Part shown: positions 21,707-61,857 of the stretch, one piece after another
Position numbering within the stretch: the stretch's first letter is position 1
How the letters are laid out: each line of letters opens with the position of its first letter
NCBI RefSeq assembly: GCF_000497125.1
Contig: NC_090600.1
Span: forward strand, 434,001-498,000
DNA from: Spironucleus salmonicida
Lineage: Eukaryota
Direction: 5' to 3'
DNA: 64,000 nt
Notes under the pieces: generated by a model
What the model was told of the DNA's origin: nothing
Databases searched by the model: none
What the model saw: only the letters and a program-made list of their open reading frames with translations
Program-made: the position numbers and the translations under genes

Positions 21707-22395
21707 TTTCGAATAATTGGCTTAATATGTATAATAGTTTGGTATGTAGAATTGTATTTGGCGAGCAATGATGGTATAATTTAATATAAAGAGAAGTGAT
21801 AATTGGTAAATAATAATTTTAGGTCATTGTTAAAATACTAGCTTTTTGAAATAATGAAATATAATTTTCGATTGATATGCTTTGGGTTGCAATTGTAGGC
21901 TGCAGCAGAAAATGTCAGAATATTGATATTTAATTAAAAATCTAAGCAATGTGGTGCTTTATGACGGTATGCTATTTGTTCAGAGATATTGATTGGAACT
22001 TTAGTACTATTAATCGGAGTTTACAGAATATTCGTTACAATCTGATTATTCTACTACTTTCTATTTGTATCGTATTTTCTAGTTACACTGATTCAGAATA
22101 GTATATCTCTCACGAATGACGACCGGATCATAGCGCTGTCGGCGCGGAAGTACGAGATTCTCTCGGTACGGGTCCTGGACGAGCAGCAGCAGAAGCTGTC
22201 GGCGCGGATAAAAAAGAGCAAGACGAGCGCCCAGCTATTCTCTTCTAAAAAGTGGCATTGAGTGAGTAAACACTGAGATAACCCCTAGATGGTATTGGGC
22301 CGCCGCAGGAAGCTGCTCTCCGCAACCGGAATGGATCCGGAGAGAACACGCTGGACGAAACAGCGGTGTTCCAGCAATTTGGATAACCTGATCAC

Positions 22396-22560
22396 TCACT
22401 CCTCAGCACCCTGTTCACAGTCGGTGGCACACTTAGTCTCCCGCTAGGACAGCAGCTTGAGTGTGCGGCCGAAACCCACGAAAAGTCGTATCAGACCGCC
22501 CACTATGAATATCAGCAGCGCAGAGAAAAGACAAATCGAAACGATGTCGATGGTGTGCAT
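22396..22560 (-). CDS. small membrane peptide (54 aa), IR1 copy
   Basis: Mirror of 31724-31888. Confidence 0.45.
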
Positions 22561-22639
22561 TGTGGAAGGGCTACTAATTAGGAGGAGGGTAAGCAAAACA
22601 AATAATGTAAATTCTGCTGTACTTTTTATCGTTTAGTAT

Positions 22640-22711
22640 GGGAAATTGGTCTAGTGGTATGATTCCTCTTTAGGGTAGAGGAGGTCCCGGGTTCCATTCC
22701 CGGATTTCCCC
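22640..22711 (+). tRNA. tRNA-Pro(AGG)
   Basis: Cloverleaf with acceptor GGGAAAT/ATTTCCC, anticodon stem CCTCT/AGAGG, loop TTAGGGT, T arm CCGGG-TTCCATT-CCCGG. Confidence 0.95.
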
Positions 22712-22863
22712 AATATTTTTTGTGCCTGGTTTGCACTAAACGAGTATTAGCATGATCCGAAGTGTACACTTAGGACCCTAAGGCTTATTTTTAAAAAATT
22801 AAGAAAGTCATGATAGATATTCCTGCTAGTAGTTAATTTTATGCTTTGTTATATTCTATTATA

Positions 22864-24394
22864 GGGGAAACAAATATTCTCATTCTTAATTTTCTTCTTT
22901 ATCTCTGACATTTTATGCTATTTATTTTTATTTTACATACGCTTTATCTTTTTACGACATAACCTACAATGTTTCAACTTAAGTTGGCATTTACTGCATA
23001 ATGTATATAAACTGACATCAGAAGTATTCATATTAGTTTTTTTGCCTTAGAAATATGTTCCTATTATATAGGGAAAGTGTCATGAATTTATGAGTACTTT
23101 TATATAGGTAAATTATATATAAGACTAACCATTAATTTACCCAAGTATTATCTCAGACATATGTTAAATTCTATTATAATTTTACAAGAGTAAAAAACTG
23201 GTCACAAGACAAAGATGCAAAAGATAGAAAAATAAATTAGTGGACCAAAAACTTACCTTGTGATTCCATTAAATGATTAAAAATATTTGTCACACTACTC
23301 AACCCCTCTGATATTTTGTTAAGAGGTATTTATTATCTCAGGTCATAGCTCAGAGTAATAATTTTCATCAGCATCTTAATGAATAGGAGAACATTACTTG
23401 GTATGGCAAACATGTACAACTTTGGTCTTTTAATTCTGTGATTCAAAAATGGTGATAATTTACTCATCTATATTAGAACAATTTTGAGTAATCTTATAAC
23501 TATGTAAACTTTTATCCATTGGATCTTATAGTTACAATTACTCTTCTTTTATGTAATATGCAAATTATACTGATTCAAATGAAGTGAAATAGTTATGTAC
23601 AGTTCATATTTTGAATTAATCCTTAATAGAGTTTAGGAATGTGTTGAATATATCTTATAACTAATTATTCAACGATTTTTTGTAAAATGGCACTATATGA
23701 CAATATCCTGTAAATAAATCACCACAAAGTCTAAACAGTAAAGCTCGTCGGCAATATTTAGATGATATGTATCTTTTATGTTTATATACTGTCTTATACC
23801 CACTTCTTGATCATAAATTCATGTTCTCACCTTTCTCCACAAATATTGTTGAACTCTATTTACGAAGCTTTAAACGGAGTCATTATATGCCGTATATATG
23901 CCTGTTTTTATCTGTGTTTTCACGCTTCTAACTGTTCATTTTAATGTTCTCTAGAAGTATTTTCATCCTCAATTAATTCTTATATCTATTATTATGCATT
24001 CTCATTCTAGTATATCTCATTTTATGATATAAGATTTAATCTTAGTTCTTCTTTAGGCAGCTTCTCAACCGTAAACTTATTAAAGAATTTTAAGCAAGAT
24101 AATGCTCACAAGAATAAATCCCTGGATAGTAATTATTTTAGACCCGAATGCTGATATCCTGTATCTTTAATAATATAATCATCTAATCTAGGTCTGGGTG
24201 ATATCTTCATAATAATAATTTAAATAATAAACTATTTGACCTCATCTATCGTAACTCTTTGATCAAAGTATTAAAAAAAGTATTTCATAGGGTTATTAGT
24301 TGATTTTAAAACTGAGGACTATAAGTATTCAATAAAAAATTAAAACTGAGTTTTGAATGGATTCCAAAATTTGGTCCATTTTCAGAATTTGGAT
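22864..24394 (-). pseudogene. decayed piggyBac-like transposase, IR1 left copy
   Basis: Mirror of 29890-31420. Confidence 0.7.
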
Positions 24395-24569
24395 GGGTAA
24401 ATAAATACAAATTAAATTAAAAAATAATCATCTAATATCAAAATCAAGTAAACTGAAATGATAGAATGACTATTTTATAATCTTGTAGCAATTTTTTATT
24501 GTCCGACAAAAAATTCAAAACATGCTTGGGCACTTAAATTTATAGGAATATAATACCAAATAAAATTGT

Positions 24570-24654
24570 TCCCCACTACCGGAATTGAACCAGTGACCGT
24601 TCGGTAACTACAGAGCTCTACAGCCAAACGCTCTGCCAACTGAGCTAAGTGGGG
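24570..24654 (-). tRNA. tRNA-Tyr(GTA) with 12-nt intron
   Basis: Mirror of 29630-29714. Confidence 0.93.
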
Positions 24655-24719
24655 ATAGTATTATAGTAGAATGATAGACATCCTGATATATTAAAACCCG
24701 TGCCGCACTCGATGGCAAA

Positions 24720-25472
24720 TCATTCACTCCAGCACCATGCAGCGAGCGCCCGCTCTCTCCCAGCATCGCTCAGCCCACCCATATATCTCCCAATCTGGCC
24801 TTTGCAACTTTCAAGACGCGATTGCGCTAATTTTGCGCGATAAAACTCCCCTAGCACCTGCCCCATGGGTGCACAAATTTGGCTCAGCCTCATGTCACGA
24901 CAGAGTAACATACCTGTATCTAGTACATTACATGCGGCTTCCAAGGTGGCAGGGAGCCTTTTCTCCTACATCAGGGCCCTGGTGGACAGGGGATATAGCT
25001 GCTGCTAATTTTTAAAATCCTCCTTAGTCAAGCACATTCCGAGTAGGTTGAACAAAATAATGCCAAATTTTCGATAGTTTGATCTGGGTGCTCTCTTTTA
25101 TTCTAGTGGAAGCTACCTTATGCATGCCAGCACACAGCATGTAAACTCCGGGTTTTAGATAATTTCCAGCAAGGTACTGTTTAGTGAAACTGCATGATAC
25201 AGCCTTTCAAAGTTAGGATACTACGTGAACGGCTGATGGGACCGTAAAAGCGCCTTCAACGAAACATTGGCCGAAACGTGAAGTGGCGTTTTCTGAGCAT
25301 GCCTTCCAGATCTTAATACCTTACTTTACGACAGACTACTGTTAAGCTAGGATGCTGCCAGTTATGACTTTTAAAGTCGGTCTTTGTCATGATGTGCATT
25401 AACAACTTTCCGCAGTAGCAATTGTAACTTAATAACCTTGTTTTACTTATTGTCAATATACTGCCTAAACAT
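24720..25472 (-). CDS. 5'-truncated duplicate of the C-terminal 250 aa of the IQ/ASPM-like gene
   Basis: Mirror of 28812-29564; an in-frame ATG lies 8 nt inside the arm boundary; expression unknown. Confidence 0.5.
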
Positions 25473-25610
25473 AATTTTTAGTAAAGTTATAGTTTCAATG
25501 ATTATATAAAATTAGTTTAACAGTATTATGATAAATTAAAAATAGAAAAGTAGTAATTTATAGTATAATTAATATATAATAGAAATTACATATTCTATAA
25601 AATTTAACAA

Positions 25611-28600
25611 ATGAATCCTATATTGGTTACGCCATAGTGTCCAATAAAATATAATGGATCATCGACTTTTCCAATTTTAATTAAAAGAAACTTTTAGCCT
25701 GTAGTAAAAGATGGTATGTTGTATATATCATAGTAAACATAAGAAAGAAAAATTTCAATTTTCAATTAGTTTCCGTCTGTTTATATATTTAGTACTTTGC
25801 TTAATAAAGAATATGAGTAAATATAGAATTTTTATCCACTTTTTAATGCGATGCTTAAAAGGTCAGAATATATTAATAGTTCATCTTTTGCCATATAATT
25901 ATAGTCATTAAAACTAAAAGTATCATTGAATAATGATAAAATTATCAAATTTATTGAAAAAGAGGCAGTTGAAAATGATAGGAATGTAGCTATAAAAATT
26001 TTAAAATAACTAGACCCTATTATTTTAAAATATATTACCAAATCAACCCTATCATATGAATAAGGTAATTTTTCGCAACTAATTAAAAACTTAGAAAATG
26101 AAAAACTTCTTTCTAACTATAAGATTTTTAAATTAAGTACATTTTCATTAATCGCATTAGATGCCGCAGATAAAATATCATAAATGATTGATGGAATTTA
26201 AGTATTATTGAATTATTCAACATCTGATCTTTTAAAAGAAGTTGGATTTATAAGTGCTCCTATAAGTTAATAGTTTATAATCGAGAGAAATAAAGACATG
26301 TAAAATATTATGGAATTTCCATGCATTGCTGATTAAATCAATAAAAAAGCAAAATACAAATTAATTGAAAAGTAATAATTTTCTCAGATATTTTAATTAT
26401 CAGAAATTTAACAAATATTAACAAAAATTTGTTATAAAACTAATTTTTTATCGATTAAAAATGACATAATTCGATAAAATACAGTCCTTAAATCGTTTAG
26501 CACATAAGAGTATGAATCGGAAGAGCAATATTTAAAAATTATCTTCTCTTAGGTTGGACTTATTTTGAATAAAACAAATATTCTTTATTAACTTTAAGAT
26601 GGGTTATTTTATCCTTTAATAATAAAGTTACTATTTCATTAGAATAATTGTATATCAATGACTGCATTAAACATACCTTTTCAGGAGATTATAGATATAT
26701 ATTCAGAAATAAGTATAAATTATGAGTCGAATTTGTAAAATTGTGATTTTTTTAAAGATAGATTCTCAAAAATTATGACAAAAACACGCCATACTAATAT
26801 AGCTTTAGGATAAGCTGTCCTTAAAAGTCTGACAAAAGATTTATCAAAAATATTCAAAGATTTTAACATTGATCCATAATCACCTTTATTTTTCCCAGAG
26901 TAACTATTTTAATCCCTCAATAATTATACATCATTTAGACTTTATGCAATATTATTAGTACGGACACTTCAATAATCATCTACTTTATTGAATTGCCAAA
27001 AAATTCATCCATTAGATCATCAAACATAGTTGAAAGTTTCTAATTATTAATAACACTTACTGTTTTTATCATAATTTTTCATGAAATATGATCAAATATT
27101 ATTAATATAGAGGAAATTTAGAGAGAATCAGAGTTATTAAAGAATAAGTCTTTTAGATTAATTCAAATTGAACATATTGAACATTTAGAAACAATCTAGA
27201 TATATTTTAGCAATTAAATATTCTCAAATTAGAAAATCTGCCATTAATAGAATATAAAAATGTTTTAGACTCTAAATAACACTTAAAAACATATCTGCAT
27301 ATCTTTTGAGATAAAATCTTTATTTTAAATCATCAACTTTTATTTAATCATTCTTTAAAATGTAGTTATGCATTTCTTAGTATCAAAAGATATAAGCAAG
27401 TATTAAAAAAATTTAAAATGCTTGTGTCCCAATAAAAATAATGAAATTATCAATTATTTATCAAGATTAAATTTAAAATTTATATTAGAAAAGATTATTT
27501 ACCTCAAGTTTATTGATTTAGTAATCTATTAGAAATAAAATTTATGATAATAAGATTATATCCAAAGCAAAATAGTATTTTATAGAATTTTAAAAAATAA
27601 AAATTATTTAAAAATTTGCCCATGAGAGAATTATTATAGCTAAAATTTTGTAATTATCATAATAATATTATATACAGAAACTATAGGTGTTTGATGCTGC
27701 CCTAAATTTACAATAGAGTTTGAGATAAATTTTCAGAACCAGATGTATTATTAAGTTTTAGATACAAGTGTAAGAATCTATGATCTTATATTGTAAGAAG
27801 ATAAATATGATAAAATCTGCATTGAAATTGCATCAATTAAATGAAAATATAATAATTAAAGCTTAGAAACATCATAATATAGTTGTATAATTAAGTTTAG
27901 ATGCTTAGAAATTGTAATTTTTGATAAAATAAATATTGTAGTAAAGAAGGAAAGACTAACTTAGAAATATGATATAAGACAGTTATAAATAATTTATATA
28001 ATATACAATATAAGTATAATCTTATATTAGGTACTAGAAATATAGCAATTAAATTCTAGATTTAGCTAAAATATAATATTAAAGAATTTCTACATCAAAT
28101 ATTATTAAATAATATCTTAAAAAGGCTAGACTTGAAAATATCATAGTTTAAAGGGCTGGACAGCACTATTTAGCTAAGCTCCTATTATATCAATAAACAT
28201 ATAACCTACAAAAATAGATAAGAGAGCATAAAAGATTAATTTTGTAGTTAAAACTCAAAAATATATTAAACTAATCATATAATTAGTTTACTGGTCAAGT
28301 TATACATATTTAAAAAAAAATTAGATATAGATAAATGTTAGATAATATTATTAAAAAAGCTGCACTATATTAGTTATAAACTATGGCAGTGTTTAAGTTA
28401 AAAATGGCAATAAAGAAACATCAATAAAACAAATAAATATTATCATTAGCACAGTTATACTATAGTAATGTTTAAACTTTATTAGAGAAATAAAGGCTGT
28501 CAGCGCTAGCAATTTAGTGTAAATTTAGAAATAACTAACTAACTTAATCTGTAAAAATATTGTAAAATTCATTTTAACAAATATTACTTCATAAAAACCT

Positions 28601-29564
28601 CATTTAATTAGCAAAGATTTAACAAGAATAAATAGACAAGACTATTGGAATCAGTAAAAATCTGGTAGCCGTATTTTAAAATTATATGAAAATTTAAAGA
28701 AATTAAAGTCTTAAACATAAATTAAATAGATGTATTTTATAAGCTGAAGATTCTATTATAACAATATAAATTAAATTTAAGTAAATTTAACATAGAGATT
28801 TTTTAAAAATTATGTTTAGGCAGTATATTGACAATAAGTAAAACAAGGTTATTAAGTTACAATTGCTACTGCGGAAAGTTGTTAATGCACATCATGACAA
28901 AGACCGACTTTAAAAGTCATAACTGGCAGCATCCTAGCTTAACAGTAGTCTGTCGTAAAGTAAGGTATTAAGATCTGGAAGGCATGCTCAGAAAACGCCA
29001 CTTCACGTTTCGGCCAATGTTTCGTTGAAGGCGCTTTTACGGTCCCATCAGCCGTTCACGTAGTATCCTAACTTTGAAAGGCTGTATCATGCAGTTTCAC
29101 TAAACAGTACCTTGCTGGAAATTATCTAAAACCCGGAGTTTACATGCTGTGTGCTGGCATGCATAAGGTAGCTTCCACTAGAATAAAAGAGAGCACCCAG
29201 ATCAAACTATCGAAAATTTGGCATTATTTTGTTCAACCTACTCGGAATGTGCTTGACTAAGGAGGATTTTAAAAATTAGCAGCAGCTATATCCCCTGTCC
29301 ACCAGGGCCCTGATGTAGGAGAAAAGGCTCCCTGCCACCTTGGAAGCCGCATGTAATGTACTAGATACAGGTATGTTACTCTGTCGTGACATGAGGCTGA
29401 GCCAAATTTGTGCACCCATGGGGCAGGTGCTAGGGGAGTTTTATCGCGCAAAATTAGCGCAATCGCGTCTTGAAAGTTGCAAAGGCCAGATTGGGAGATA
29501 TATGGGTGGGCTGAGCGATGCTGGGAGAGAGCGGGCGCTCGCTGCATGGTGCTGGAGTGAATGA
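25611..29564 (+). CDS. IQ-motif repeat protein, ASPM/abnormal-spindle-like (1317 aa)
   Basis: No in-frame TGA on reading 25611 to 29564. IQ-like repeats: SAINRIQKCFR, STFIQSFFKM, SALAIQCKFR, KVIKLQLLLR. N-terminal LKQLDPIILKY, FSLIALDAA and LQDGLFYPLII recall ASPM CH regions. Crosses the spacer/arm junction at 28804. ORF is secure; family is tentative. Confidence 0.65.
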
Positions 29565-29629
29565 TTTGCCATCGAGTGCGGCACGGGTTTTAATATATCA
29601 GGATGTCTATCATTCTACTATAATACTAT

Positions 29630-29714
29630 CCCCACTTAGCTCAGTTGGCAGAGCGTTTGGCTGTAGAGCTCTGTAGTTACCGAACGGTCACTGGTTCAAT
29701 TCCGGTAGTGGGGA
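29630..29714 (+). tRNA. tRNA-Tyr(GTA) with 12-nt intron (29667-29678)
   Basis: Acceptor CCCCACT/AGTGGGG, D arm GCTC/GAGC, anticodon stem TTTGG/CCGAA, GTA at 29663-29665, intron at position 37/38, T loop TTCAATT. Confidence 0.93.
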
Positions 29715-29889
29715 ACAATTTTATTTGGTATTATATTCCTATAAATTTAAGTGCCCAAGCATGTTTTGAATTTTTTGTCGGACAATAAAAAATTGCTACA
29801 AGATTATAAAATAGTCATTCTATCATTTCAGTTTACTTGATTTTGATATTAGATGATTATTTTTTAATTTAATTTGTATTTATTTACCC

Positions 29890-31420
29890 ATCCAAATTCT
29901 GAAAATGGACCAAATTTTGGAATCCATTCAAAACTCAGTTTTAATTTTTTATTGAATACTTATAGTCCTCAGTTTTAAAATCAACTAATAACCCTATGAA
30001 ATACTTTTTTTAATACTTTGATCAAAGAGTTACGATAGATGAGGTCAAATAGTTTATTATTTAAATTATTATTATGAAGATATCACCCAGACCTAGATTA
30101 GATGATTATATTATTAAAGATACAGGATATCAGCATTCGGGTCTAAAATAATTACTATCCAGGGATTTATTCTTGTGAGCATTATCTTGCTTAAAATTCT
30201 TTAATAAGTTTACGGTTGAGAAGCTGCCTAAAGAAGAACTAAGATTAAATCTTATATCATAAAATGAGATATACTAGAATGAGAATGCATAATAATAGAT
30301 ATAAGAATTAATTGAGGATGAAAATACTTCTAGAGAACATTAAAATGAACAGTTAGAAGCGTGAAAACACAGATAAAAACAGGCATATATACGGCATATA
30401 ATGACTCCGTTTAAAGCTTCGTAAATAGAGTTCAACAATATTTGTGGAGAAAGGTGAGAACATGAATTTATGATCAAGAAGTGGGTATAAGACAGTATAT
30501 AAACATAAAAGATACATATCATCTAAATATTGCCGACGAGCTTTACTGTTTAGACTTTGTGGTGATTTATTTACAGGATATTGTCATATAGTGCCATTTT
30601 ACAAAAAATCGTTGAATAATTAGTTATAAGATATATTCAACACATTCCTAAACTCTATTAAGGATTAATTCAAAATATGAACTGTACATAACTATTTCAC
30701 TTCATTTGAATCAGTATAATTTGCATATTACATAAAAGAAGAGTAATTGTAACTATAAGATCCAATGGATAAAAGTTTACATAGTTATAAGATTACTCAA
30801 AATTGTTCTAATATAGATGAGTAAATTATCACCATTTTTGAATCACAGAATTAAAAGACCAAAGTTGTACATGTTTGCCATACCAAGTAATGTTCTCCTA
30901 TTCATTAAGATGCTGATGAAAATTATTACTCTGAGCTATGACCTGAGATAATAAATACCTCTTAACAAAATATCAGAGGGGTTGAGTAGTGTGACAAATA
31001 TTTTTAATCATTTAATGGAATCACAAGGTAAGTTTTTGGTCCACTAATTTATTTTTCTATCTTTTGCATCTTTGTCTTGTGACCAGTTTTTTACTCTTGT
31101 AAAATTATAATAGAATTTAACATATGTCTGAGATAATACTTGGGTAAATTAATGGTTAGTCTTATATATAATTTACCTATATAAAAGTACTCATAAATTC
31201 ATGACACTTTCCCTATATAATAGGAACATATTTCTAAGGCAAAAAAACTAATATGAATACTTCTGATGTCAGTTTATATACATTATGCAGTAAATGCCAA
31301 CTTAAGTTGAAACATTGTAGGTTATGTCGTAAAAAGATAAAGCGTATGTAAAATAAAAATAAATAGCATAAAATGTCAGAGATAAAGAAGAAAATTAAGA
31401 ATGAGAATATTTGTTTCCCC
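29890..31420 (+). pseudogene. decayed piggyBac-like (DDE_Tnp_1_7) transposase
   Basis: Motifs in piggyBac order: VTIDEVKQFI...RPRLDDY, LLSRDLFL*ALSCLKF, MTPFKAS...FMIKKWVQDS, YHLNIADELY, PEIINTSQQNIRGVEQCD, CRLCRKKIKR. Several in-frame TGA and frameshifts; ends approximate. Confidence 0.72.
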
Positions 31421-31572
31421 TATAATAGAATATAACAAAGCATAAAATTAACTACTAGCAGGAATATCTATCATGACTTTCTTAATTTTTTAAAAATAAG
31501 CCTTAGGGTCCTAAGTGTACACTTCGGATCATGCTAATACTCGTTTAGTGCAAACCAGGCACAAAAAATATT

Positions 31573-31644
31573 GGGGAAATCCGGGAATGGAACCCGGGAC
31601 CTCCTCTACCCTAAAGAGGAATCATACCACTAGACCAATTTCCC
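31573..31644 (-). tRNA. tRNA-Pro(AGG)
   Basis: Mirror of 22640-22711. Confidence 0.95.
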
Positions 31645-31723
31645 ATACTAAACGATAAAAAGTACAGCAGAATTTACATTATTTGTTTTGCTTACCCTCC
31701 TCCTAATTAGTAGCCCTTCCACA

Positions 31724-31888
31724 ATGCACACCATCGACATCGTTTCGATTTGTCTTTTCTCTGCGCTGCTGATATTCATAGTGGGCGGTCTGATACGACT
31801 TTTCGTGGGTTTCGGCCGCACACTCAAGCTGCTGTCCTAGCGGGAGACTAAGTGTGCCACCGACTGTGAACAGGGTGCTGAGGAGTGA
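31724..31888 (+). CDS. small membrane peptide (54 aa, MHTIDIVSICLFSALLIFIVGGLIRLF...)
   Basis: C-rich CCCTTCCACA before the ATG, one TM segment, ends in GAGTGA. Confidence 0.5.
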
Positions 31889-32022
31889 GTGATCAGGTTA
31901 TCCAAATTGCTGGAACACCGCTGTTTCGTCCAGCGTGTTCTCTCCGGATCCATTCCGGTTGCGGAGAGCAGCTTCCTGCGGCGGCCCAATACCATCTAGG
32001 GGTTATCTCAGTGTTTACTCAC

Positions 32023-51152: not shown

Positions 51153-51521
51153 TTCTGGGGTTCGCAGGGGCACCGCGTGGGCTTGGTTGCAGTGGCACAC
51201 ATCTCTGGGACCGGGCGGATGAGCGCAGCTACCCCCCAGCCCCGCTGGGATGCCATACCTGCAGAGCAAGCCGCGTAGTACGCTCTGGCGGGTGCACTGG
51301 AAGAAACGAGCGGCCAGGGAGTGACATACCCTGCCAAATTCCGGGCTGGCCACACAGCTGGCGCGCGACTGCACCTGGTGCGCTGGTATCGTGCCCACCT
51401 CCCACCATGCGGGGATGACCGAACGGGCTGCCTCGGGGGCGCCGCTGCCCGAAGTCCAGCAGGCGCCATTGCCACCTGCCGCATTAGTATGTGATAATAT
51501 AGCCAATTCGGCAAAAATTAA

Positions 51522-54146
51522 ATGCCCCCGCGGTCGACTTCGTCCCGCCGGAACCTGAAGGGCTCGTCGTTCCTGCTCTAGAACGAGGAGATCCTGAACG
51601 AAATCCGCCAGCCGCTGACCCCGCCGGCCGTGCACCCCCACAACCTGGGGCAAGAGCTGGAGGCGATCCGCTCGCACCAGCGCGCCCATGACGACCTACT
51701 CCGGGACCTCACGCACCAGATCGCGCAGACCAACGTGACGGTGTTCCGCCAGAAGGTGGCGGAGAACTTCACCAACCTCAAGGAGGGCTTCACGCTGATC
51801 TAGAAGGAGCGGCGCGTCGAGAAGGAGTCGCTGAGCCAGCACAAGAAGGACACCGGGCGGCAGATCAAGGAGTTCCAGGGGGACTTCCTGGAGTTCGCGC
51901 AGATCCTGAAGCGCTTCGAGGGCCGGCTGCAGGACATGCAGGCCCAGGCGCTGCGGCGCGAGCTCAAGCAGCAGAGCCAGATCGCGGTGCTCAAACAGGT
52001 GTTGAAACGCTCTGGCGTGTACAACCATTTCCTGATGGGGGAACACGGCGCGCCGGCGGCGGTGCAGAGCAAGGCCGCGGCTGCCCTCCAACACGGCAGC
52101 TCCCCCGCGGAGATCGAGGCCCTGCTGCAGAAGCAGGCGGCGCTGTTCGACCAGAAGCTGCAGCAGCTGGACGAGAAGCTGGTGCAGAACGAGCAGATCA
52201 CCCACTAGCTCATCGAGCAGCGCACGACCCTGCACACCCAGCAGACGGCACAGATTTCAGAGCGCACGGCCCTGCGGCTGGACCACTTCGAGGAGGACCT
52301 GCAGCGCAGCGAGCGAGGCCTGCAGCAGGTGCGGGACGACTGGCTGGCCAAGGTGGACGCTGTGCAGGCGCAGCAGCGCTTCCTGCAGGAGACCCAGGGC
52401 CAGGTGAACCTGAACGTGGAGGCAGAATCCCAGCGCTTCGCCGCATTCATGTCCTCGGCACGGCTGCATGCAGAGCAGACGACGCACGACCTGAAGGCGG
52501 TGAAGGAGCGCGTGGCCCTGGTGCAGACGCAGAAGGAGGAGGCGGAGTGCCACTTCCAGCAGTTTAAGATGGAGTACCAGCAGTTCATCCAGCAGAGCAA
52601 GATCCAGTCATACTACGTCCGTGTGGACGACATCAGCGACAACCAGGAGAAGATTCTGCTCAAACTAGAGTCCCAGGAGGCCGTCAGCACCATGCTGGGT
52701 GACAAGTATAAGGAGTGCTTCGATGAGATCCAGAGCGTGCTGATGTCCACTAAGCAGAGCAACTTTGAGGCAAGCCAGATCGTCTCGCGCCAGGTGCAGC
52801 AGTACCAGGAGATGAGGCTGCGGCTGGCGGACCACATCGAGCGGGTGAACGTGCAAAGCATGAACGACCTGATCCAGAAGAAAGTGGAGCTCGACACCAT
52901 ATAGTTCCAGGGGACACTCAACAAGCTCGCGGGGCACCTCCGGGATCTAGATGAGCGCCTCACGGGGTAGGAGACCATGATAGTGCACGGACAGAACCAC
53001 ACCGCGGAGCTCATCCAGACGATCGTCAACCAGCCGACGAGCCTGGAAGAGCTGGAGGACTACCACGCGGTCCCAATGGACGACTTCAGCCAGATAGAGC
53101 CCATGCGGCAGGTAGGAAAGCCAAAGGCAGGCAAGAAGGTCAAACTGGATTCGAACCGCCAGCTGATGCTCCAGCAGCAGCTGTTCCGCAAAACCAAGGA
53201 CGAGGTGCAACTCATCCTCGACGAGGTCTCCAAGCTAAAGGTCAGGCTCAGCAAGGCGGGTGAGCGCCACGACAAGTTTGCCGAGCGCACTAACACCACT
53301 CTGTAGGAGCTGACGGACCAAACGCGCCAGAGTCTGCAGAAGGCCGACCAGCTTAGCATCGTCGACGACTAGGCGGAGGAGCAGCTCAATCTGGTGAAGG
53401 CCAGCATCAATACTTTCCAACAAAGCTTCCGGCAAGAGTTATAGTCCCTAAACTAGGTGCAGACCAAGTTTCGCGTCATAGAGACGTCACAGAGAGAAAT
53501 TATAGAGCGGTTTAGCGACTTTACTGGGAAGCTTGTCGACCAGGAACGCCTATTCCAGCTGAAGCAAGAGGAAGCAATGATATAGTCTACGAATCAGCTT
53601 TAAACTATAGGGGATGCGTCAGACACGCACACCGCGCAGCTTGAAACGATTGGGTCTAAGCTAACGAAGTATTCCGAGATTACAGAGAACCTGTTCCTCC
53701 ACAAATCTAACTTCACGCAAACTATCGACAAGGTGGTAAGTAAGTAAGACCACCTCGAAGAAGAGCAGATCAGCATCCGGCACTCAATTTCCAGCCTTAT
53801 TGACTCTACGACGAAACTGCGACTCGAGGCCACCTGCGACTAGGGAAAGGTGGAGAACGTAAGTCAAGAAATAGCTATAATGCGTGGTAACGGGGAGAAA
53901 TAAAAGCAGTTTATTTATCGGTTACAGGATGAAACTGTAACACAGGAGCGGAAACTAGGTGTGTTGAGGTGTGGTTTGGCAGAGATGTAACATTCGTTAG
54001 ATAAATTTAGTTCCTAGTTTAAATAAGAATAGGTACTACAAGAAACAATTGCGATTGCAGATAATATAACAGACGTACAAAGTCTGGCGCTTTAGGACCT
54101 CCGGAGTCAATTTAAGGGGGTAAAGGAGTCAATCTACGGGCAGTGA
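51522..54146 (+). CDS. coiled-coil protein (874 aa), IR2 left copy
   Basis: Track ORFs 51936, 52329 and 52977 join in frame under code 6; Q/E/L/K-rich; ends in CAGTGA. Confidence 0.85.
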
Positions 54147-54180
54147 CTGATTGTACTAGATAAACTCACTAAATTACACC

Positions 54181-55689
54181 TCATACGTCCTCATGGTCCG
54201 AGTTACACTCGATTCGCTAAAGCTATCGATCCATGATGATGGTATTTCCTGGTAGGTGGGTTACTATCTCCTCCCCATCACTACTACTACCGGTAAATCC
54301 TGTATTTTTTGCCATCTTCATTGTCTGCAAGCTAACCAGGTTAACTTGTATCTCACGCGGGTAGTCCACCGAGCTGATGTACTCGCGCGATTAGACTGAG
54401 CGAAGTTTATTTGCTACATCTTGTTATTCAATTATTGTTGTTTTATTATTAGGAATCTATGCGAAAGTACTATTTTTCCTTAAAACTGTAGATTAATCTT
54501 TGTTCACTGATATTTCTGTTTCTTGTTAGTGTTCACATTTATAAATTTCAATTCTTTAAGGCTTCTTTTTGTATGCTATGATAAATACAATAATTAAAAT
54601 AATGATAATTAAAATAAATACTACTAAAAAAGTAATTCCACTAATAATTCCTATACTCAGAGTTTCCTTACAAAGTGACTCTTCTTTTAAAATTAATATA
54701 TTGTTCAATAGTTCTTTTGAAGATAAAACTATGCAAATACATTTTGTATCGCATTTATTTGAGTTAACTTTTACAATATCATTAATTAAAATAAAATCTT
54801 TAAACCTTGGAAAATTATTGTCGTAAAATTAATATAGGATTAAATCAAAATCATGATAATTTTATTGTTATTTTAGCTATTAATCATTTAAAATCAGAAA
54901 TTACTAATTATTTTATATATTGGTATTACTAATAAGCCCAGTTAATACAGATTTATAAGTTGGAAGCTGTAAAAGTTAAAATTATAACTATGTACTTATC
55001 CTAATATTAACAAAATCTAAACCTTACGTGCCTATTACCACATTAACTTAGCTGAGAATAATCGTCTAAATGTAACTTTCTTTAATATTTCCAACGATTT
55101 ATCCTAATAAATTTATTTAATTTTTACTTTAAACAGTATTTTGCATAGCCAATTAATAAATATTAATATTCCCCGTTTAGGATAAACCTAAGAAATAATT
55201 CGCATCTGACTATAAACTAATATATAATTTAGTAATATTTCCATTAAAAACTTCTGCAGATAATAAAGAAAATTAATTTTCCGCAAAAATATTACCGCCT
55301 ATTTGGACAAATGTTAGTTAACATTCTTAACAAATCTAAGTTAGGCTTAACGATGCTGCATTAGTCCTACCAATATATATAACAATAATATTTTTTAAAA
55401 TTAATTTTTTGGCATTTGCACAATAAACAAATGTGGAGAATGCTTTTGAATTTTATAACTAAATTCTAAATATACCATTCTATATCGTTAAATCTTCGCA
55501 ATAAGTAAAAAATCCCAAATTTTTCGCATTAATGTCAGACTAAGTAAATACAGTGTTATTATTTAAATCTAGAATCCCCGATGAAACAGATTTTAATGGT
55601 TCTGAAAGAGTTTCATTTATACTAGAGGTCAATATATTTTCCTTATTAGTCTCAAAACTATAGATTGAAGTAATAACTGCAATTTACAT
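54181..55689 (-). CDS. type-I membrane protein (502 aa) crossing the IR2 inner boundary
   Basis: In-frame ATG and TGA; TM IGIISGITFLVVFILIIIILIIVFIIAY followed by KKK; the last ~72 codons lie in the arm. Confidence 0.7.
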
Positions 55690-55764
55690 TTTTAGATATA
55701 GTAACTTATATTGAATATTATACAGATAAATAAATTCTAAAAATAAAATTGAAAATATTCTTCA

Positions 55765-56145
55765 TCACATATCAGCTGCACGATGAGCATTATCTGAGCT
55801 TTCATCACCTTCCTCATCATCAGAATCATCGTCGTCATATTAATCATATTAAGAAGCAGACTCTGATTCATCGTCATAATAATAAACTTCCTCATATTCA
55901 TAAACTTCTTCCATTTGCTCTTTAATTGCTATGTCTTTATCGACAGCTTTCATTTTAAGGTCATCACCTTCGTTTAAAAAGTCATCATTTTTAACTTCAG
56001 TTCCATCTTCCTTAAAAAGTCTTTAACGAATCCAGGAAACTTTAAAATGCTTGGCGATAACTTTTTTAGCAGATTCAACTTAATTTTTGTTATCAGCAAG
56101 ATCGATTTCCTTAGTAATATCATCTAAAGTAACATAAACTTTCAT
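55765..56145 (-). CDS. ubiquitin-like domain with acidic tail (126 aa)
   Basis: MKVYVTLDDITKEIDL...QRLFKEDGTEV...LNEGDDLKM followed by a D/E/Y-rich tail. Confidence 0.65.
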
Positions 56146-56439
56146 TTTATTAAATAGGTGGAAGGGAAATATTAAAGTGGATGAAATAACATATAATATT
56201 ATATTTCATATTTTATATAAAATAATCAAATCTTAACATTAGTTATTAATAAACGTTGAATATGCAAGATCTATCTCCCTTTCACAATATATTTAATATT
56301 AAACGACTAATATTTAGTAAATACACTGATCAACTTAGTGTGTAGAATATAAGACTATTTTCTATTAGATTGAATTGTGAAATTCTTACTAAGACTTTAT
56401 ATGAGTCTAAACATGAATAGAAATAAATAGTAAATAAAA

Positions 56440-56769
56440 TCAACCCGAATAATCTTCTGCTGACTTTTCATCATAGGCGGAACCACTTTCATAAGCACCA
56501 CTTTCTTCATATTCATATTCAGCTTCATATTACTCTTCATCTTTCTCTTCTTTTGTAGCCTTAGAATCTTTAACTTCTTTTATTGTAAGCTTCATACCTT
56601 CAGTAACTTCGGCTTTAAGATCTAATACTTTTTCATCATTTAAAATTTCAATTTTAGAATCTAATTTAAATGCTTTAGCAAGAATTGGAGCTAATTGTTA
56701 CACAGTTTTCTTATTATCAGGTACTTCAGTATCCTTAGTAGTTGCTTCAAAAGAAATAGTAAGTTTCAT
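56440..56769 (-). CDS. ubiquitin-like domain with acidic tail (109 aa), paralog of 55765-56145
   Basis: MKLTISFEATTKDTEVPDNKKTV...VTEGMKLTI followed by an E/Y-rich tail. Confidence 0.65.
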
Positions 56770-57181
56770 TTTTTGATTTAAAGTGGAAATAAAGTGTAAG
56801 ATTATCAGAACTTATATATCATATATTTTTTATCTTATAAAAATCTATTCATATTTCACTAGTTTTATTTTTGATAAACATTATCTAGGATGCAAGATAT
56901 CTAATCCGTTATATTTAACTACAATATTATGCATTTATCGATATTTGAACATAAGATAAAATAATAATACAACTATTTTGACTAAAATAATGAAATCGTT
57001 AAAACCATTTCACTTTCATAACTTTAAATTATAATATTATAAAATAGAATTATAATTTAACCATTTTAGTATAAATTGTGGTTTGTATAAAATTAGTAAT
57101 TTTATTTAAATATATTTCATATAGTATAATAACTAATTTTAAATTTCTCTTTATTAAACTCTCTTTATAACCATTCCACCA

Positions 57182-57781
57182 ATGCATTACTCTTATTGCT
57201 CTTACTTCAAAAATATGTGCTCTAGACTGATTTATAGCTTGATTATAGCTATTTTTATCACAGTAATTGCAATATTTACGGCTGATATTTTATAAGTAAC
57301 AATGAGCTTTTCTAAGTTTGTTTATCATGAAGAAGAAAAAAGTACTACATTTACTAGTATTGGCGAACCAATTAAGATTGAATCTACTTATTTTAAGTTC
57401 GAGCTACCTGGAATTGCCCAAATTGCAACAAGAACTGATGGTTAAAAATGTCTTTCTTTTAATATCAAAAATAAAGCTACCACGACAAATATAGGTACTA
57501 AATACCATGAGTCTCTGTTTAACATAGTAATATCCGATCAATAATAAGTAACCTGTATAGACTCCACTTCATATGACAATTTAGCCAATGGATTTTTATA
57601 TCATAATATGGATTTAATGGTAGCTATTTTAGTAATTGCTGTCTTATTATTCCTAGTTATTCTCACTATTTGTATTTGGTGTTGTTGCGATGGATTCTGT
57701 GGATGCAGATGTTGTAACTTATTTACAATGTGTTGTGATGCAGATAGGCAGGAAAATAATGTTAGCTATATTTAAGTATGA
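57182..57781 (+). CDS. two-TM protein with Cys-rich juxtamembrane tail (199 aa)
   Basis: CCATTCCACC before the ATG; second TM followed by ICIWCCCDGFCGCRCC. Confidence 0.7.
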
Positions 57782-58211
57782 GTGATTGTTGTTATATATT
57801 TTTCTTTAAAATTGATTAGTATATATTAATGTATGTATTTATGCTATGAATGATTGAATAGATTGATTTTACATTAATTCTTGACATAATATTTTTATCA
57901 TTAAACCCTTGAAATTATCACAATTTGTAGTTTATAAATAATATACTACTATCTGTGTTTAGTCTAATCGCGCGAGTACATCAGCTCGGTGGACTACCCG
58001 CGTGAGATACAAGTTAACCTGGTTAGCTTGCAGACAATGAAGATGGCAAAAAATACAGGATTTACCGGTAGTAGTAGTGATGGGGAGGAGATAGTAACCC
58101 ACCTACCAGGAAATACCATCATCATGGATCGATAGCTTTAGCGAATCGAGTGTAACTCGGACCATGAGGACGTATGAGGTGTAATTTAGTGAGTTTATCT
58201 AGTACAATCAG

Positions 58212-60836
58212 TCACTGCCCGTAGATTGACTCCTTTACCCCCTTAAATTGACTCCGGAGGTCCTAAAGCGCCAGACTTTGTACGTCTGTTATATTATCTG
58301 CAATCGCAATTGTTTCTTGTAGTACCTATTCTTATTTAAACTAGGAACTAAATTTATCTAACGAATGTTACATCTCTGCCAAACCACACCTCAACACACC
58401 TAGTTTCCGCTCCTGTGTTACAGTTTCATCCTGTAACCGATAAATAAACTGCTTTTATTTCTCCCCGTTACCACGCATTATAGCTATTTCTTGACTTACG
58501 TTCTCCACCTTTCCCTAGTCGCAGGTGGCCTCGAGTCGCAGTTTCGTCGTAGAGTCAATAAGGCTGGAAATTGAGTGCCGGATGCTGATCTGCTCTTCTT
58601 CGAGGTGGTCTTACTTACTTACCACCTTGTCGATAGTTTGCGTGAAGTTAGATTTGTGGAGGAACAGGTTCTCTGTAATCTCGGAATACTTCGTTAGCTT
58701 AGACCCAATCGTTTCAAGCTGCGCGGTGTGCGTGTCTGACGCATCCCCTATAGTTTAAAGCTGATTCGTAGACTATATCATTGCTTCCTCTTGCTTCAGC
58801 TGGAATAGGCGTTCCTGGTCGACAAGCTTCCCAGTAAAGTCGCTAAACCGCTCTATAATTTCTCTCTGTGACGTCTCTATGACGCGAAACTTGGTCTGCA
58901 CCTAGTTTAGGGACTATAACTCTTGCCGGAAGCTTTGTTGGAAAGTATTGATGCTGGCCTTCACCAGATTGAGCTGCTCCTCCGCCTAGTCGTCGACGAT
59001 GCTAAGCTGGTCGGCCTTCTGCAGACTCTGGCGCGTTTGGTCCGTCAGCTCCTACAGAGTGGTGTTAGTGCGCTCGGCAAACTTGTCGTGGCGCTCACCC
59101 GCCTTGCTGAGCCTGACCTTTAGCTTGGAGACCTCGTCGAGGATGAGTTGCACCTCGTCCTTGGTTTTGCGGAACAGCTGCTGCTGGAGCATCAGCTGGC
59201 GGTTCGAATCCAGTTTGACCTTCTTGCCTGCCTTTGGCTTTCCTACCTGCCGCATGGGCTCTATCTGGCTGAAGTCGTCCATTGGGACCGCGTGGTAGTC
59301 CTCCAGCTCTTCCAGGCTCGTCGGCTGGTTGACGATCGTCTGGATGAGCTCCGCGGTGTGGTTCTGTCCGTGCACTATCATGGTCTCCTACCCCGTGAGG
59401 CGCTCATCTAGATCCCGGAGGTGCCCCGCGAGCTTGTTGAGTGTCCCCTGGAACTATATGGTGTCGAGCTCCACTTTCTTCTGGATCAGGTCGTTCATGC
59501 TTTGCACGTTCACCCGCTCGATGTGGTCCGCCAGCCGCAGCCTCATCTCCTGGTACTGCTGCACCTGGCGCGAGACGATCTGGCTTGCCTCAAAGTTGCT
59601 CTGCTTAGTGGACATCAGCACGCTCTGGATCTCATCGAAGCACTCCTTATACTTGTCACCCAGCATGGTGCTGACGGCCTCCTGGGACTCTAGTTTGAGC
59701 AGAATCTTCTCCTGGTTGTCGCTGATGTCGTCCACACGGACGTAGTATGACTGGATCTTGCTCTGCTGGATGAACTGCTGGTACTCCATCTTAAACTGCT
59801 GGAAGTGGCACTCCGCCTCCTCCTTCTGCGTCTGCACCAGGGCCACGCGCTCCTTCACCGCCTTCAGGTCGTGCGTCGTCTGCTCTGCATGCAGCCGTGC
59901 CGAGGACATGAATGCGGCGAAGCGCTGGGATTCTGCCTCCACGTTCAGGTTCACCTGGCCCTGGGTCTCCTGCAGGAAGCGCTGCTGCGCCTGCACAGCG
60001 TCCACCTTGGCCAGCCAGTCGTCCCGCACCTGCTGCAGGCCTCGCTCGCTGCGCTGCAGGTCCTCCTCGAAGTGGTCCAGCCGCAGGGCCGTGCGCTCTG
60101 AAATCTGTGCCGTCTGCTGGGTGTGCAGGGTCGTGCGCTGCTCGATGAGCTAGTGGGTGATCTGCTCGTTCTGCACCAGCTTCTCGTCCAGCTGCTGCAG
60201 CTTCTGGTCGAACAGCGCCGCCTGCTTCTGCAGCAGGGCCTCGATCTCCGCGGGGGAGCTGCCGTGTTGGAGGGCAGCCGCGGCCTTGCTCTGCACCGCC
60301 GCCGGCGCGCCGTGTTCCCCCATCAGGAAATGGTTGTACACGCCAGAGCGTTTCAACACCTGTTTGAGCACCGCGATCTGGCTCTGCTGCTTGAGCTCGC
60401 GCCGCAGCGCCTGGGCCTGCATGTCCTGCAGCCGGCCCTCGAAGCGCTTCAGGATCTGCGCGAACTCCAGGAAGTCCCCCTGGAACTCCTTGATCTGCCG
60501 CCCGGTGTCCTTCTTGTGCTGGCTCAGCGACTCCTTCTCGACGCGCCGCTCCTTCTAGATCAGCGTGAAGCCCTCCTTGAGGTTGGTGAAGTTCTCCGCC
60601 ACCTTCTGGCGGAACACCGTCACGTTGGTCTGCGCGATCTGGTGCGTGAGGTCCCGGAGTAGGTCGTCATGGGCGCGCTGGTGCGAGCGGATCGCCTCCA
60701 GCTCTTGCCCCAGGTTGTGGGGGTGCACGGCCGGCGGGGTCAGCGGCTGGCGGATTTCGTTCAGGATCTCCTCGTTCTAGAGCAGGAACGACGAGCCCTT
60801 CAGGTTCCGGCGGGACGAAGTCGACCGCGGGGGCAT
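58212..60836 (-). CDS. coiled-coil protein (874 aa), IR2 right copy
   Basis: Mirror of 51522-54146. Confidence 0.85.
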
Positions 60837-61205
60837 TTAATTTTTGCCGAATTGGCTATATTATCACATACTAATGCGGCAGGTGGCAATGGCGCCTGCT
60901 GGACTTCGGGCAGCGGCGCCCCCGACGCAGCCCGTTCGGTCATCCCCGCATGGTGGGAGGTGGGCACGATACCAGCGCACCAGGTGCAGTCGCGCGCCAG
61001 CTGTGTGGCCAGCCCGGAATTTGGCAGGGTATGTCACTCCCTGGCCGCTCGTTTCTTCCAGTGCACCCGCCAGAGCGTACTACGCGGCTTGCTCTGCAGG
61101 TATGGCATCCCAGCGGGGCTGGGGGGCAGCTGCGCTCATCCGCCCGGTCCCAGAGATGTGTGCCACTGCAACCAAGCCCACGCGGTGCCCCTGCGAACCC
61201 CAGAA

Positions 61206-61532
61206 ATGGACAGGCCCTGCTACGAGGTGTTCCGGCTCAGCGACGACCGCATCACGGTGCTGAAGTCCCGCGGGCTGCGCTTCGGCCACGACCTCCTGGT
61301 CAGCCTCTTCTCTGCACCGCGGCCGTAGGTCATCGCCACGAGGCTGGCCCTCAATGGCGTGGAGTTTGACGTGCTGGTGGTCGAGCCTGGCTACCTCCAG
61401 GGCCGCGCAGGGGACCTAGGCTTCGCCGCCACGCAGCGGGGGGAGTGCTTCAAGATCATCGTCTTCCGGTTCCCCATCCAGGTGGCCGAGGCCTTCGCGG
61501 TGCTGGAGGGCATTTCAATCCCGTCTGTCTGA
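61206..61532 (+). CDS. profilin-like protein (108 aa), IR2 right copy
   Basis: Mirror of 50826-51152; CAG changed to TAG (Gln) at 61326. Confidence 0.55.
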
Positions 61533-61857
61533 ACCCAGCACCCAGAATTATTAGCAGCCGAACCCGTGCGCAGTAGGTTTGCCTTGGAACACGCGCAGGC
61601 TTTATGGCACCCGCAGCTATCGGCCTGCGCGGATGCAGCGAAGTTACCACAAGTAAGCGCAATTGGGAATACACCCCAGGTACCTAGCATGTTCGTTAGG
61701 CCGCTTCGTGGGGCTTCACCACATCAGAGAGATTAGCTTTTTACCTTTATTTATAAATAACTTATATAATATATAATCAACTTCTATATTAATGATTTGT
61801 CTATAATTTTATTATTATAATACAATTACCACTATAATTACCAAAAATTGTAACTCC

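What the first reader, a model, noticed from the sequence alone, without database searches (positions are those of the whole stretch)
22111..61734. Two similar-sized palindromic cassettes whose spacer genes survive inversion (candidate flip-flop segments)
Seen: two near-perfect inverted repeats, with arms of 3370 and 3774 bp and spacers of 3323 and 3563 bp. In both, a gene starts in the unique spacer and ends inside an arm (25611-29564 and 54181-55689), and the other arm holds an orphan copy of that C-terminus. Established: recombination between inverted arms inverts the spacer. Inference: either orientation rebuilds an intact gene, so these could be tolerated invertible segments or products of a recurrent duplication mechanism. 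No target-site duplication was seen.
Basis: partly seen in the sequence, partly recalled or inferred. Interest (0 to 1): 0.8.

Follow-up and report, generated by a model that had tools for sequence, protein, structure and literature searches.

The report
Gene-converted inverted duplications in Spironucleus
Two mirror-image duplications in a fish-parasite chromosome are real and look like old copies that keep correcting each other and have become rich in G and C, which points to concerted evolution rather than a genetic on/off switch.

Summary
Both inverted repeats are as described (arms 3370 and 3774 bp, spacers 3323 and 3563 bp). The DNA is from a diplomonad (code 6); protein hits name Spironucleus salmonicida. 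'Either orientation rebuilds the gene' holds for any perfect inverted repeat, so a flip changes no protein, and no recombinase or special site was found. The sizes are not a fixed module: 864 kb of the genome hold 20 close inverted pairs (arms 0.6-8 kb, spacers 0-6 kb) against 2 direct pairs. The telling feature is compositional. In three genes that cross an arm edge, third-position GC jumps within 3 codons of the edge (0.18 to 0.47, 0.18 to 0.56, 0.28 to 0.78). Two paralogues of one gene show that the high value is derived. Best reading: old duplications kept identical by GC-biased arm-to-arm gene conversion, as in primate sex-chromosome palindromes and plastid repeats. The scan reached this reading before on other DNA of this genome. 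New here are the excess of inverted pairs at short range, an outer-to-inner GC decline seen only in close pairs, and a young AT-rich mobile element shared by both arms. Flipping itself is untested.

The parts
22111..25480 (.). IR1 left arm, probably the inserted copy: it lies between two divergent genes, 404 bp from ATG 21706 and 130 bp from ATG 25611
   Evidence: neither junction scored as gene-crossing
25481..28803 (.). IR1 spacer, unique, 21% GC
   Evidence: one DNA contig 25451-28833 in each of two runs
28804..32173 (.). IR1 right arm, native copy: genes cross both of its edges
25611..29564 (+). 1317-aa orphan gene; 1064 codons in the spacer (GC3 0.18), 253 in the right arm (GC3 0.47)
   Evidence: probable RNA contigs bridge 28803 in 2 of 2 runs; no Pfam hit, no homologue, no paralogue
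24720..25480 (-). orphan copy of the 3' end of the 1317-aa gene, with an in-frame ATG at 25472
29630..29714 (+). tRNA gene with an intron, read as tRNA-Tyr(GTA) by my inspection; mirror copy 24570-24654 (-)
29759..31507 (.). 1.75-kb AT-rich (26% GC) dispersed element between the two tRNA genes; mirror copy 22777-24525; 95% identical to a copy at G000:C5:690573-692313; three copies on C2 have TTAA-flanked short terminal inverted repeats
   Evidence: no transposase in Pfam
31573..31644 (-). tRNA-Pro(AGG); mirror copy 22640-22711 (+)
31724..31888 (+). 54-aa hydrophobic ORF, whole in both arms (mirror 22396-22560, -)
   Evidence: probable RNA contigs cover it
32023..32529 (-). 168-aa gene crossing the outer edge of the right arm; GC3 0.28 outside, 0.78 inside; orphan tail at 22111-22261 (+)
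   Evidence: probable RNA contigs bridge 32173 in 2 of 2 runs
50624..54397 (.). IR2 left arm, 57% GC, falling from about 0.66 (outer) to about 0.45 (inner)
54398..57960 (.). IR2 spacer, unique, 25% GC; holds the 5' part of the 502-aa gene and a 263-aa ORF at 56990-57781 (+)
57961..61734 (.). IR2 right arm, probably the inserted copy: 179 bp after stop 57781 and 123 bp before stop 61858 of two convergent ORFs
50826..51152 (-). 108-aa ORF, profilin-like (lead only), whole in both arms (mirror 61206-61532, +); both copies give the same protein
51522..54146 (+). 874-aa Gln-rich gene, whole in both arms (mirror 58212-60836, -); GC3 0.90 in the first 629 codons, 0.53 after
54181..55689 (-). 502-aa putative single-pass membrane protein; 430 codons in the spacer (GC3 0.18), 72 in the left arm (GC3 0.56); orphan tail at 57961-58177 (+)

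Best explanation
Each cassette is a local inverted segmental duplication. A few kb were copied in reverse into a nearby intergenic gap, leaving one native arm (genes run across its edges) and one inserted arm (the same genes appear as cut tails). The duplications are old, not recent. The arms pair and repair from each other by non-reciprocal gene conversion, which keeps them 99.9-100% identical. Mismatch repair favours G/C, so everything inside the arms drifts to high GC right up to the edge of homology, even in the middle of a gene. Close inverted copies persist because a crossover between them only flips the spacer, which changes no protein, whereas a crossover between close direct copies deletes one. 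SHOWN: the repeats, native continuity of one junction gene, coincidence of GC steps and edges, derived state of the high GC in that gene, abundance of such pairs and their inverted bias. INFERRED: conversion as the cause, the GC bias of repair, the age, the deletion of direct copies, and occasional neutral flips.
For: (1) Free change-point fits of GC3 fall on the arm edge in 3 of 3 crossing genes: junction codon 1064, fit 1067 (interval 1063-1073); 430, fit 429 (426-433); 118, fit 118 (117-122); Fisher p 3e-20, 7e-11, 2e-9. (2) Two paralogues of the 168-aa gene have GC3 0.30 and 0.28 where the arm copy has 0.88 and 0.84 (33 and 43 aligned codons), and match it outside the arm (0.28 vs 0.27; 0.24 vs 0.26). 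A named paralogue aligns across the junction, aa 20-142, 36% identity. (3) Synonymous Gln codons TAR:CAR are 156:36 outside and 14:16 inside the arms, p=1e-4. (4) Orphan tails are still identical to the working genes. (5) A 26%-GC element only 5% diverged from a distant sibling sits identically in both IR1 arms, between GC-rich ends, where two other copies of the same tRNA pair are about 54-60 bp apart. It looks younger than the GC gain, so the arms exchanged it afterwards (inference). (6) In 864 kb, 59 pairs (>=500 bp, >=90%) cover 26% of the DNA; GC is 0.447 in them and 0.311 outside; inside exceeds outside at 148 of 169 edges with unique flank; identity falls with distance, rho -0.67, n=43. 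In 17 of 26 crossing genes with a significant step, the step is within 60 bp of an edge. (7) Inverted:direct is 20:2 below 6.5 kb and 23:14 above, Fisher p=0.018. (8) Arm-to-arm GC-biased conversion with multi-kb tracts and rare inversions is measured in primate palindromes (PMC3723533, PMC8981503; passages).
Against: GC-rich DNA also occurs with no present partner: window 5001-22110 (dynein gene, GC3 0.34-0.74 in all 200-codon bins but the last three) has no close duplicate of the gene in the genome, 32 of 110 genes in DNA unique within the sample have significant internal GC3 steps, and 81 of 233 windows above 50% GC are not in a sampled duplicate. The substitution bias in the element is not significant: 32:18 unpolarised (p=0.065), 13:9 versus 4:7 polarised (p=0.28). 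No decayed homology beyond the edges in 7 of 8 tests; the eighth is an AT-rich alignment I do not trust. Arm GC does not correlate with identity or distance. No homologue tests continuity of the 1317- and 502-aa genes. No second strain or species was available, so conversion was not observed directly. Edges and pairs are not independent counts.
Confidence: 0.74

Rival explanations
1. Recent duplications whose breakpoints prefer existing GC/AT boundaries, for example template switching at melting borders. The GC steps are older and have another cause.
For: Near-perfect identity; GC steps exist in apparently unique genes, 32 of 110; a long GC-rich region has no duplicate; no decayed homology beyond the edges.
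Against: It needs breakpoints to hit an unexplained intragenic step to within 3 codons in 3 of 3 genes, and a higher GC inside at 148 of 169 edges. Paralogues show that the GC-rich state is derived and confined to the arm. Some near-identical pairs are AT-rich (GC 0.23-0.32), which is what young copies should look like.
Confidence: 0.11
2. The arms are old and homogenised, but the GC gain comes from a different mutation spectrum or chromatin state of duplicated DNA, or from selection on codon use, and not from biased conversion.
For: The same composition data; the polarised bias in the element is not significant.
Against: Codon selection should not change within one reading frame at a DNA homology edge, and orphan tails share the gain. 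No repeat-specific AT-to-GC mutagen is known to me (recalled).
Confidence: 0.08
3. Programmed or selected flip-flop cassettes (phase variation): the spacer is inverted to change expression.
For: Crossover between the arms would invert the spacer (established; plastid flip-flop in PMC5430533). One repeat elsewhere in the sample has its native junctions on opposite arms, the footprint of a past inversion.
Against: With identical arms both orientations encode the same proteins with the same 3.4-3.8 kb of flanking DNA. IR2's 3 differences lie in the outer 810 bp; the one inside a called gene is silent. No recombinase among 22 ORFs scanned. The two cassettes share no sequence. Sizes vary freely. 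IR1 has both native junctions on one arm.
Confidence: 0.04
4. Assembly artefact.
For: IR1's arms are 100% identical; the left flank 20001-22110 was not covered by the laid contigs; the DNA contigs overlap the arms by only 30 letters, one short of the tool's bridging rule; both DNA runs may be the source sample.
Against: Contigs of two DNA runs break exactly at 22111 and 25480 and restart 30 letters inside the arms (25451-28833; 32144 onward), as expected at true branch points. Arm contigs carry depth 316-458 against 138 (spacer) and 160 (flank) in X1, and 20-29 against 12 in X2, although the tool warns that this figure is no copy number. IR2's arms differ at 3 sites. A published long-read assembly of the species reports normal coverage at its two largest duplications (PMC9509377).
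Confidence: 0.03

Closest known systems
Primate X/Y-chromosome palindromes (PMC3723533, PMC8981503; passages read)
   Same: Inverted arms >99% identical around a unique spacer; arms richer in GC than flanks; conversion tracts of kilobases; inversions rare and neutral; spacer/arm borders shift over time.
   Different: Arms here are 3-4 kb (primate arms can exceed 1 Mb), frequent (about 22 per Mb in the sample), not on a sex chromosome, and the GC contrast is large (GC3 0.18 to 0.5-0.9) with codon-sharp edges. Conversion is inferred here but measured there.
Identical inverted vsp gene pairs of Giardia (PMC2996952 passages; PMC7641422 passages and section 9)
   Same: Diplomonad nuclear genome; identical inverted copies with abrupt divergence points; 2.2-3.8 kb between ORFs in G. 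lamblia and 1.7-10.6 kb in G. muris; genes or gene fragments in the spacer.
   Different: The duplicated genes here are not VSP/CRMP antigens but two-copy orphans, tRNAs and a profilin-like ORF. The passages read give no GC analysis or mechanism.
Plastid large inverted repeat (PMC5430533, passages)
   Same: Copy correction by gene conversion, flip-flop isomers, and small expansions and contractions ('ebb and flow'). Genes cut at the junction leaving truncated copies such as ycf1 and rps19 is recalled, not read.
   Different: One conserved rRNA-bearing repeat per organelle genome versus many unrelated nuclear repeats; flip-flop is shown there and untested here.
GC-rich duplicated regions of Spironucleus salmonicida (PMC9509377, passages)
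   Same: Reports 19.2% of the genome in duplications (>=2 kb, >=95%) with GC 44.7% against 30.7%; my sample gives 44.7% against 31.1%.
   Different: The main text has 0 occurrences of 'inverted' or 'palindrom' and names gene conversion once, for surface-protein expansion. The orientation bias, intragenic steps and polarity are not in the passages seen. Supplements were not seen.
Site-specific invertible segments (Hin, Fim, Cin; recalled)
   Same: A segment bounded by inverted repeats that can be reversed.
   Different: Those use short sites and a dedicated recombinase and change expression or protein ends; none of this is seen here.

Membership tests
Gene-converted palindrome (Y/X type) | inverted arms >99% identical around a unique spacer | tested here: met
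   100% and 99.92%; spacers unique
Gene-converted palindrome (Y/X type) | arms richer in GC than flanks, as a derived state | tested here: met
   polarised with paralogues for 1 of 3 crossing genes
Gene-converted palindrome (Y/X type) | AT-to-GC excess among substitutions fixed in both arms | tested here: inconclusive
   element 32:18 (p=0.065), polarised 13:9 vs 4:7 (p=0.28); Gln TAR:CAR shift p=1e-4 is compositional, not polarised
Gene-converted palindrome (Y/X type) | conversion events seen across individuals, or palindrome older than its arm divergence by a species comparison | not testable with these tools
   G000 has no relatives here; all four DNA runs listed are one sample
Flip-flop repeat (plastid type) | both spacer orientations coexist | not testable with these tools
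   only contigs shorter than flank-arm-spacer were laid
Flip-flop repeat (plastid type) | arm borders move by expansion and contraction | tested here: inconclusive
   outer-to-inner GC decline in 10 of 13 close repeats, but step and smooth models fit the IR2 gene alike, AIC 748.7-758.5
Site-specific phase-variation inversion | dedicated recombinase nearby | tested here: not met
   no recombinase family among 22 ORFs or in six frames of the element; the rest of the genome was not searched
Site-specific phase-variation inversion | orientation changes a promoter or a protein end | tested here: not met
   arms identical across all junction genes
Composite transposon or foldback element | target-site duplication and arms that recur elsewhere as an element | tested here: not met
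   no TSD; IR2 arms have no third copy; only an internal 1.75 kb and the tRNAs of IR1 recur
Giardia identical inverted vsp pairs | the duplicated gene is a cysteine-rich variant surface protein | tested here: not met
   arm genes are not cysteine-rich surface proteins; the geometry is alike

The most novel reading that the evidence does not exclude
This nuclear genome runs a genome-wide palindrome life cycle. Short inverted duplications arise often, are homogenised by unusually strong GC-biased intrachromosomal conversion that can copy kilobase insertions, and grow inward by converting across their inner edges until the spacer is consumed. That is how spacer genes come to end inside an arm. 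When one arm is later lost, the other remains as a GC-rich fossil tract. The GC landscape of the genome would then be a dated map of past duplications. Support: outer third richer in GC than inner third in 10 of 13 repeats with spacer <4 kb (p=0.027), but in 11 of 22 distant inverted and 9 of 15 direct pairs; inner-end GC rises with spacer length, rho 0.60, p=0.0065, n=19. Not excluded: conversion simply works less well next to a short loop.
Probability: 0.3. Interest if true: 0.72.

Novelty: new variant of a known kind. Interest (0 to 1): 0.45.

Why it matters
If right, a diplomonad genome carries many small palindromes under strong GC-biased conversion (20 in 864 kb sampled; a few hundred if the sample is representative). 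This gives sharp, countable units for measuring homologous recombination and repair bias in a lineage where both are poorly known. It would also explain a published but unexplained link between duplication and GC content, and it warns that near-identical copies in this genome need not be young. It removes the case for a regulated switch at these two loci.

Tried and rejected
Genetic codes 11 and 4 leave most of the window without long frames; table 6 fits. Homologue searches for the 1317-aa protein (0 of 6831 candidates), the 502-aa tail (self only) and the 874-aa protein (self plus a same-species entry that departs from it in two stretches, probably frameshifts) gave no outgroup. A resemblance of the 1317-aa protein to IQ-repeat spindle proteins is recalled and untested. 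Run search: no holder is on record as RNA; X5 and X6 are guessed RNA from one study. The uncovered left flank of IR1 proves nothing. IR2 had no reads laid. Decayed homology beyond the edges: not found. Discrete strata in IR2: a one-step fit is strong against a constant but no better than a smooth decline, so I do not claim strata. Native-junction phasing of 26 repeats: 2 cis, 2 trans, 22 undecided, and the script failed to call IR1 itself. The junction classifier missed IR1's inner right junction, so its counts are rough. Transposase in the 1.75-kb element: none in Pfam over 12 frames. TSD: none. Literature searches listed no paper on palindrome conversion in Spironucleus or Hexamita; only listings were seen, supplements were not read, and subscription papers are missing from the library.
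Full report
Observation. Self-BLAST of the window gives exactly two hits, both inverted. Walking inward base by base fixes IR1 at 22111-25480 / 28804-32173 (3370 bp, no mismatch, spacer 3323) and IR2 at 50624-54397 / 57961-61734 (3774 bp, three mismatches, spacer 3563). The two cassettes share no sequence. Long frames appear only when TAA and TAG are read as Gln. They include an intronless dynein heavy chain, a TOR-like kinase and cysteine-rich membrane proteins, which fits a hexamitid diplomonad; protein hits name Spironucleus salmonicida. The window is G000:C5:434001-498000.

Are the repeats real? On 20001-35000, contigs of two DNA runs break at 22111 and 25480. The spacer contig is 25451-28833 and the right-flank contig starts at 32144, that is 30 letters inside each arm, as at true branch points. 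Arm contigs carry two to three times the depth figure of spacer and flank. Two probable RNA runs of one study each bridge 28803 and 32173 with more than 31 letters on both sides.

Anatomy. IR1's right arm is native: the 1317-aa gene crosses its inner edge and a 168-aa gene (32023-32529) crosses its outer edge. The latter has a paralogue that aligns across the junction (aa 20-142, 36%), so it is not a chimera. The left arm sits in a gap between two divergent genes, and IR2's right arm in a gap between two convergent ORFs. The arms also hold whole genes: two tRNAs and a 54-aa ORF in IR1; an 874-aa gene and a 108-aa profilin-like ORF in IR2.

With identical arms, reversing the spacer is the same as swapping the outer flanks, so any gene crossing an inner edge is rebuilt. 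This is geometry, not design, and it makes a flip silent. No recombinase was found among 22 ORFs. IR2's three arm differences lie in the outer 810 bp, and the one inside a called gene is silent.

Is it a size module? I compared 864 kb: the window, 100 kb on each side, and 200 kb at fixed coordinates of C1, C3 and C7. With tandem arrays set aside, 59 same-contig pairs of at least 500 bp and 90% identity cover 26% of the DNA; 43 are inverted and 16 direct. Below 6.5 kb the ratio is 20:2, above it 23:14 (p=0.018). Thirteen of the 20 close inverted pairs are in the three fixed blocks, so the window is not special. Among 19 close pairs (one cut by the sample edge was dropped) arms span 565-7989 bp and spacers 0-6171 bp. 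Only 2 of 171 pairings are as alike in size as IR1 and IR2, one being that pair itself; 6 of 20 have spacers of 2.5-4 kb. A crude coding classifier found an inner junction inside a gene in 7 of 18 close pairs, against 40% of 1500 random unique positions, and it missed one true case. Several pairs share multi-copy units and are not independent.

What the composition shows. Third-position GC jumps at the arm edge in 3 of 3 crossing genes (0.18 to 0.47, 0.18 to 0.56, 0.28 to 0.78). Free change-point fits land within 3, 1 and 0 codons of the edge. Two paralogues of the 168-aa gene stay at 0.28-0.30 where the arm copy reaches 0.84-0.88, and match it outside the arm. Synonymous Gln codons shift from 156:36 (TAR:CAR) to 14:16. 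Across the sample, GC is 0.447 in duplicates and 0.311 outside; 148 of 169 edges with unique flank are richer inside; identity falls with distance (rho -0.67); 17 of 26 significant steps in crossing genes lie within 60 bp of an edge. Raising GC3 this far needs changes at a large share of synonymous sites, yet the arms, including useless orphan tails, are identical. I infer old copies under continual GC-biased conversion.

An internal clock. Both IR1 arms hold a 1.75-kb, 26%-GC element between the tRNA genes. It is 95% identical to a copy about 225 kb away and 74-75% identical to three copies on C2, whose ends show TTAA followed by short inverted repeats; elsewhere the same tRNA pair is about 54-60 bp apart. 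An AT-rich, little-diverged insert within GC-rich arm ends is most simply younger than the GC gain. It was then copied from arm to arm (inference). Its own substitution bias points the expected way but is not significant (32:18, p=0.065; polarised p=0.28).

Polarity. In close repeats the outer third of the arm is richer in GC than the inner third (10 of 13 with spacer <4 kb, p=0.027; 12 of 19 <6.5 kb, p=0.039). Distant inverted pairs (11 of 22) and direct pairs (9 of 15) show no such trend, and inner-end GC rises with spacer length (rho 0.60, p=0.0065). In IR2 the 874-aa gene falls from GC3 0.90 to 0.53 near codon 629, but step and smooth models fit about equally (AIC 748.7-758.5). Inward growth of arms and weaker conversion near a short loop both remain open.

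Against my reading. The GC-rich dynein region 5001-22110 has no close duplicate of the gene in the genome. 32 of 110 genes unique within the sample have internal GC3 steps (188 genes selected, 5 in tandem arrays dropped). These may be fossils of lost arms, may have partners outside the sample, or may have another cause. No decayed homology was found beyond the edges in 7 of 8 tests. Arm GC does not track identity or distance. Continuity was tested by homology for 1 of 3 genes only. Conversion and flipping were not observed directly. One repeat on C1 has its native junctions on opposite arms, which shows that an inversion has happened in this genome, by crossover or at the birth of the repeat.

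Comparison with what is known. It works like primate X/Y palindromes, where conversion is GC-biased, tracts reach kilobases, and 3 inversions were seen against 56 conversions (PMC3723533, PMC8981503; passages). It also works like the plastid inverted repeat, with copy correction, flip-flop and 'ebb and flow' (PMC5430533; passages). The geometry matches Giardia's identical inverted vsp pairs (PMC2996952, passages; PMC7641422, passages and section 9), but the genes are not surface antigens. A genome paper of the species reports that duplicated regions are GC-rich (44.7% vs 30.7%) without the words 'inverted' or 'palindrom' (PMC9509377; passages). The 2014 paper has no occurrence of 'gene conversion' or 'inverted' (PMC3916229; passages). 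Searches listed nothing closer; supplements were not seen and may bear on this. Earlier notes of this scan proposed GC-biased conversion for other repeats of this genome. They turned my attention to the GC steps, which I then tested here on this window.

Verdict. A real feature; a strong variant of a known process; not a switch. Interest 0.45. The most novel open reading, a genome-wide cycle of inward-growing, GC-accumulating palindromes, has probability about 0.3.

Noticed in passing
window 50826-51152 (-) and 61206-61532 (+): A 108-aa ORF with weak profilin signals: Pfam PF00235 E=0.06; atlas top hits are profilin clusters at 0.90, 190 shared features. [quoted passage not shown] A lead for a divergent diplomonad profilin; not folded.
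   Followed up: partly
window 29759-31507 and 22777-24525; L001-L005: A dispersed 1.75-kb AT-rich element with at least five other copies (95% to about 67-75% identity), TTAA-flanked short terminal inverted repeats in the C2 copies, decayed frames with a weak RING-like stretch, and no transposase hit.
   Followed up: partly
G000:C1:503317-513418 (L027, L028); intact copy at C1:543160-551454: A second copy of a large cysteine-rich membrane-protein gene lies in two halves of opposite orientation that overlap in a 798-bp inverted repeat (spacer 4687 bp): the footprint of an inversion.
   Followed up: partly
window 5736-18566: The dynein heavy chain gene has patchy GC3 (0.23-0.74 per 200 codons) with no close duplicate in the genome; possibly fossil conversion tracts.
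   Followed up: partly
window 61856 onward and G000:C5:522096-526130: A third, more diverged inverted pair (about 4 kb, 96.6%, 22 kb apart) begins 122 bp after IR2 and holds the cysteine-rich membrane protein gene 61858-63867.
   Followed up: no
window 18798-18970: U3 snoRNA (Rfam RF00012); the surrounding 300 bp has a 93% copy at G000:C5:432387-432686.
   Followed up: no
window 22396-22560 / 31724-31888: A 54-aa hydrophobic ORF, duplicated whole and covered by probable RNA contigs; no family above cut-off.
   Followed up: no
G000:C5:509899-517883, 531160-552927: Three near-perfect tandem arrays with units of 660, 582 and 618 bp; tandem DNA in the sample is 54% GC.
   Followed up: no
G000:C7:685542-690145 and C7:544020-552188: Palindromes with almost no spacer (about 0 and 171 bp) and arms of 2.3 and 4.0 kb are present in the assembly.
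   Followed up: no
window 24720-25472 (-): The orphan tail of the 1317-aa gene has an in-frame ATG 9 bp inside the arm and could encode a separate 250-aa protein; no contig showed transcription across that junction.
   Followed up: no
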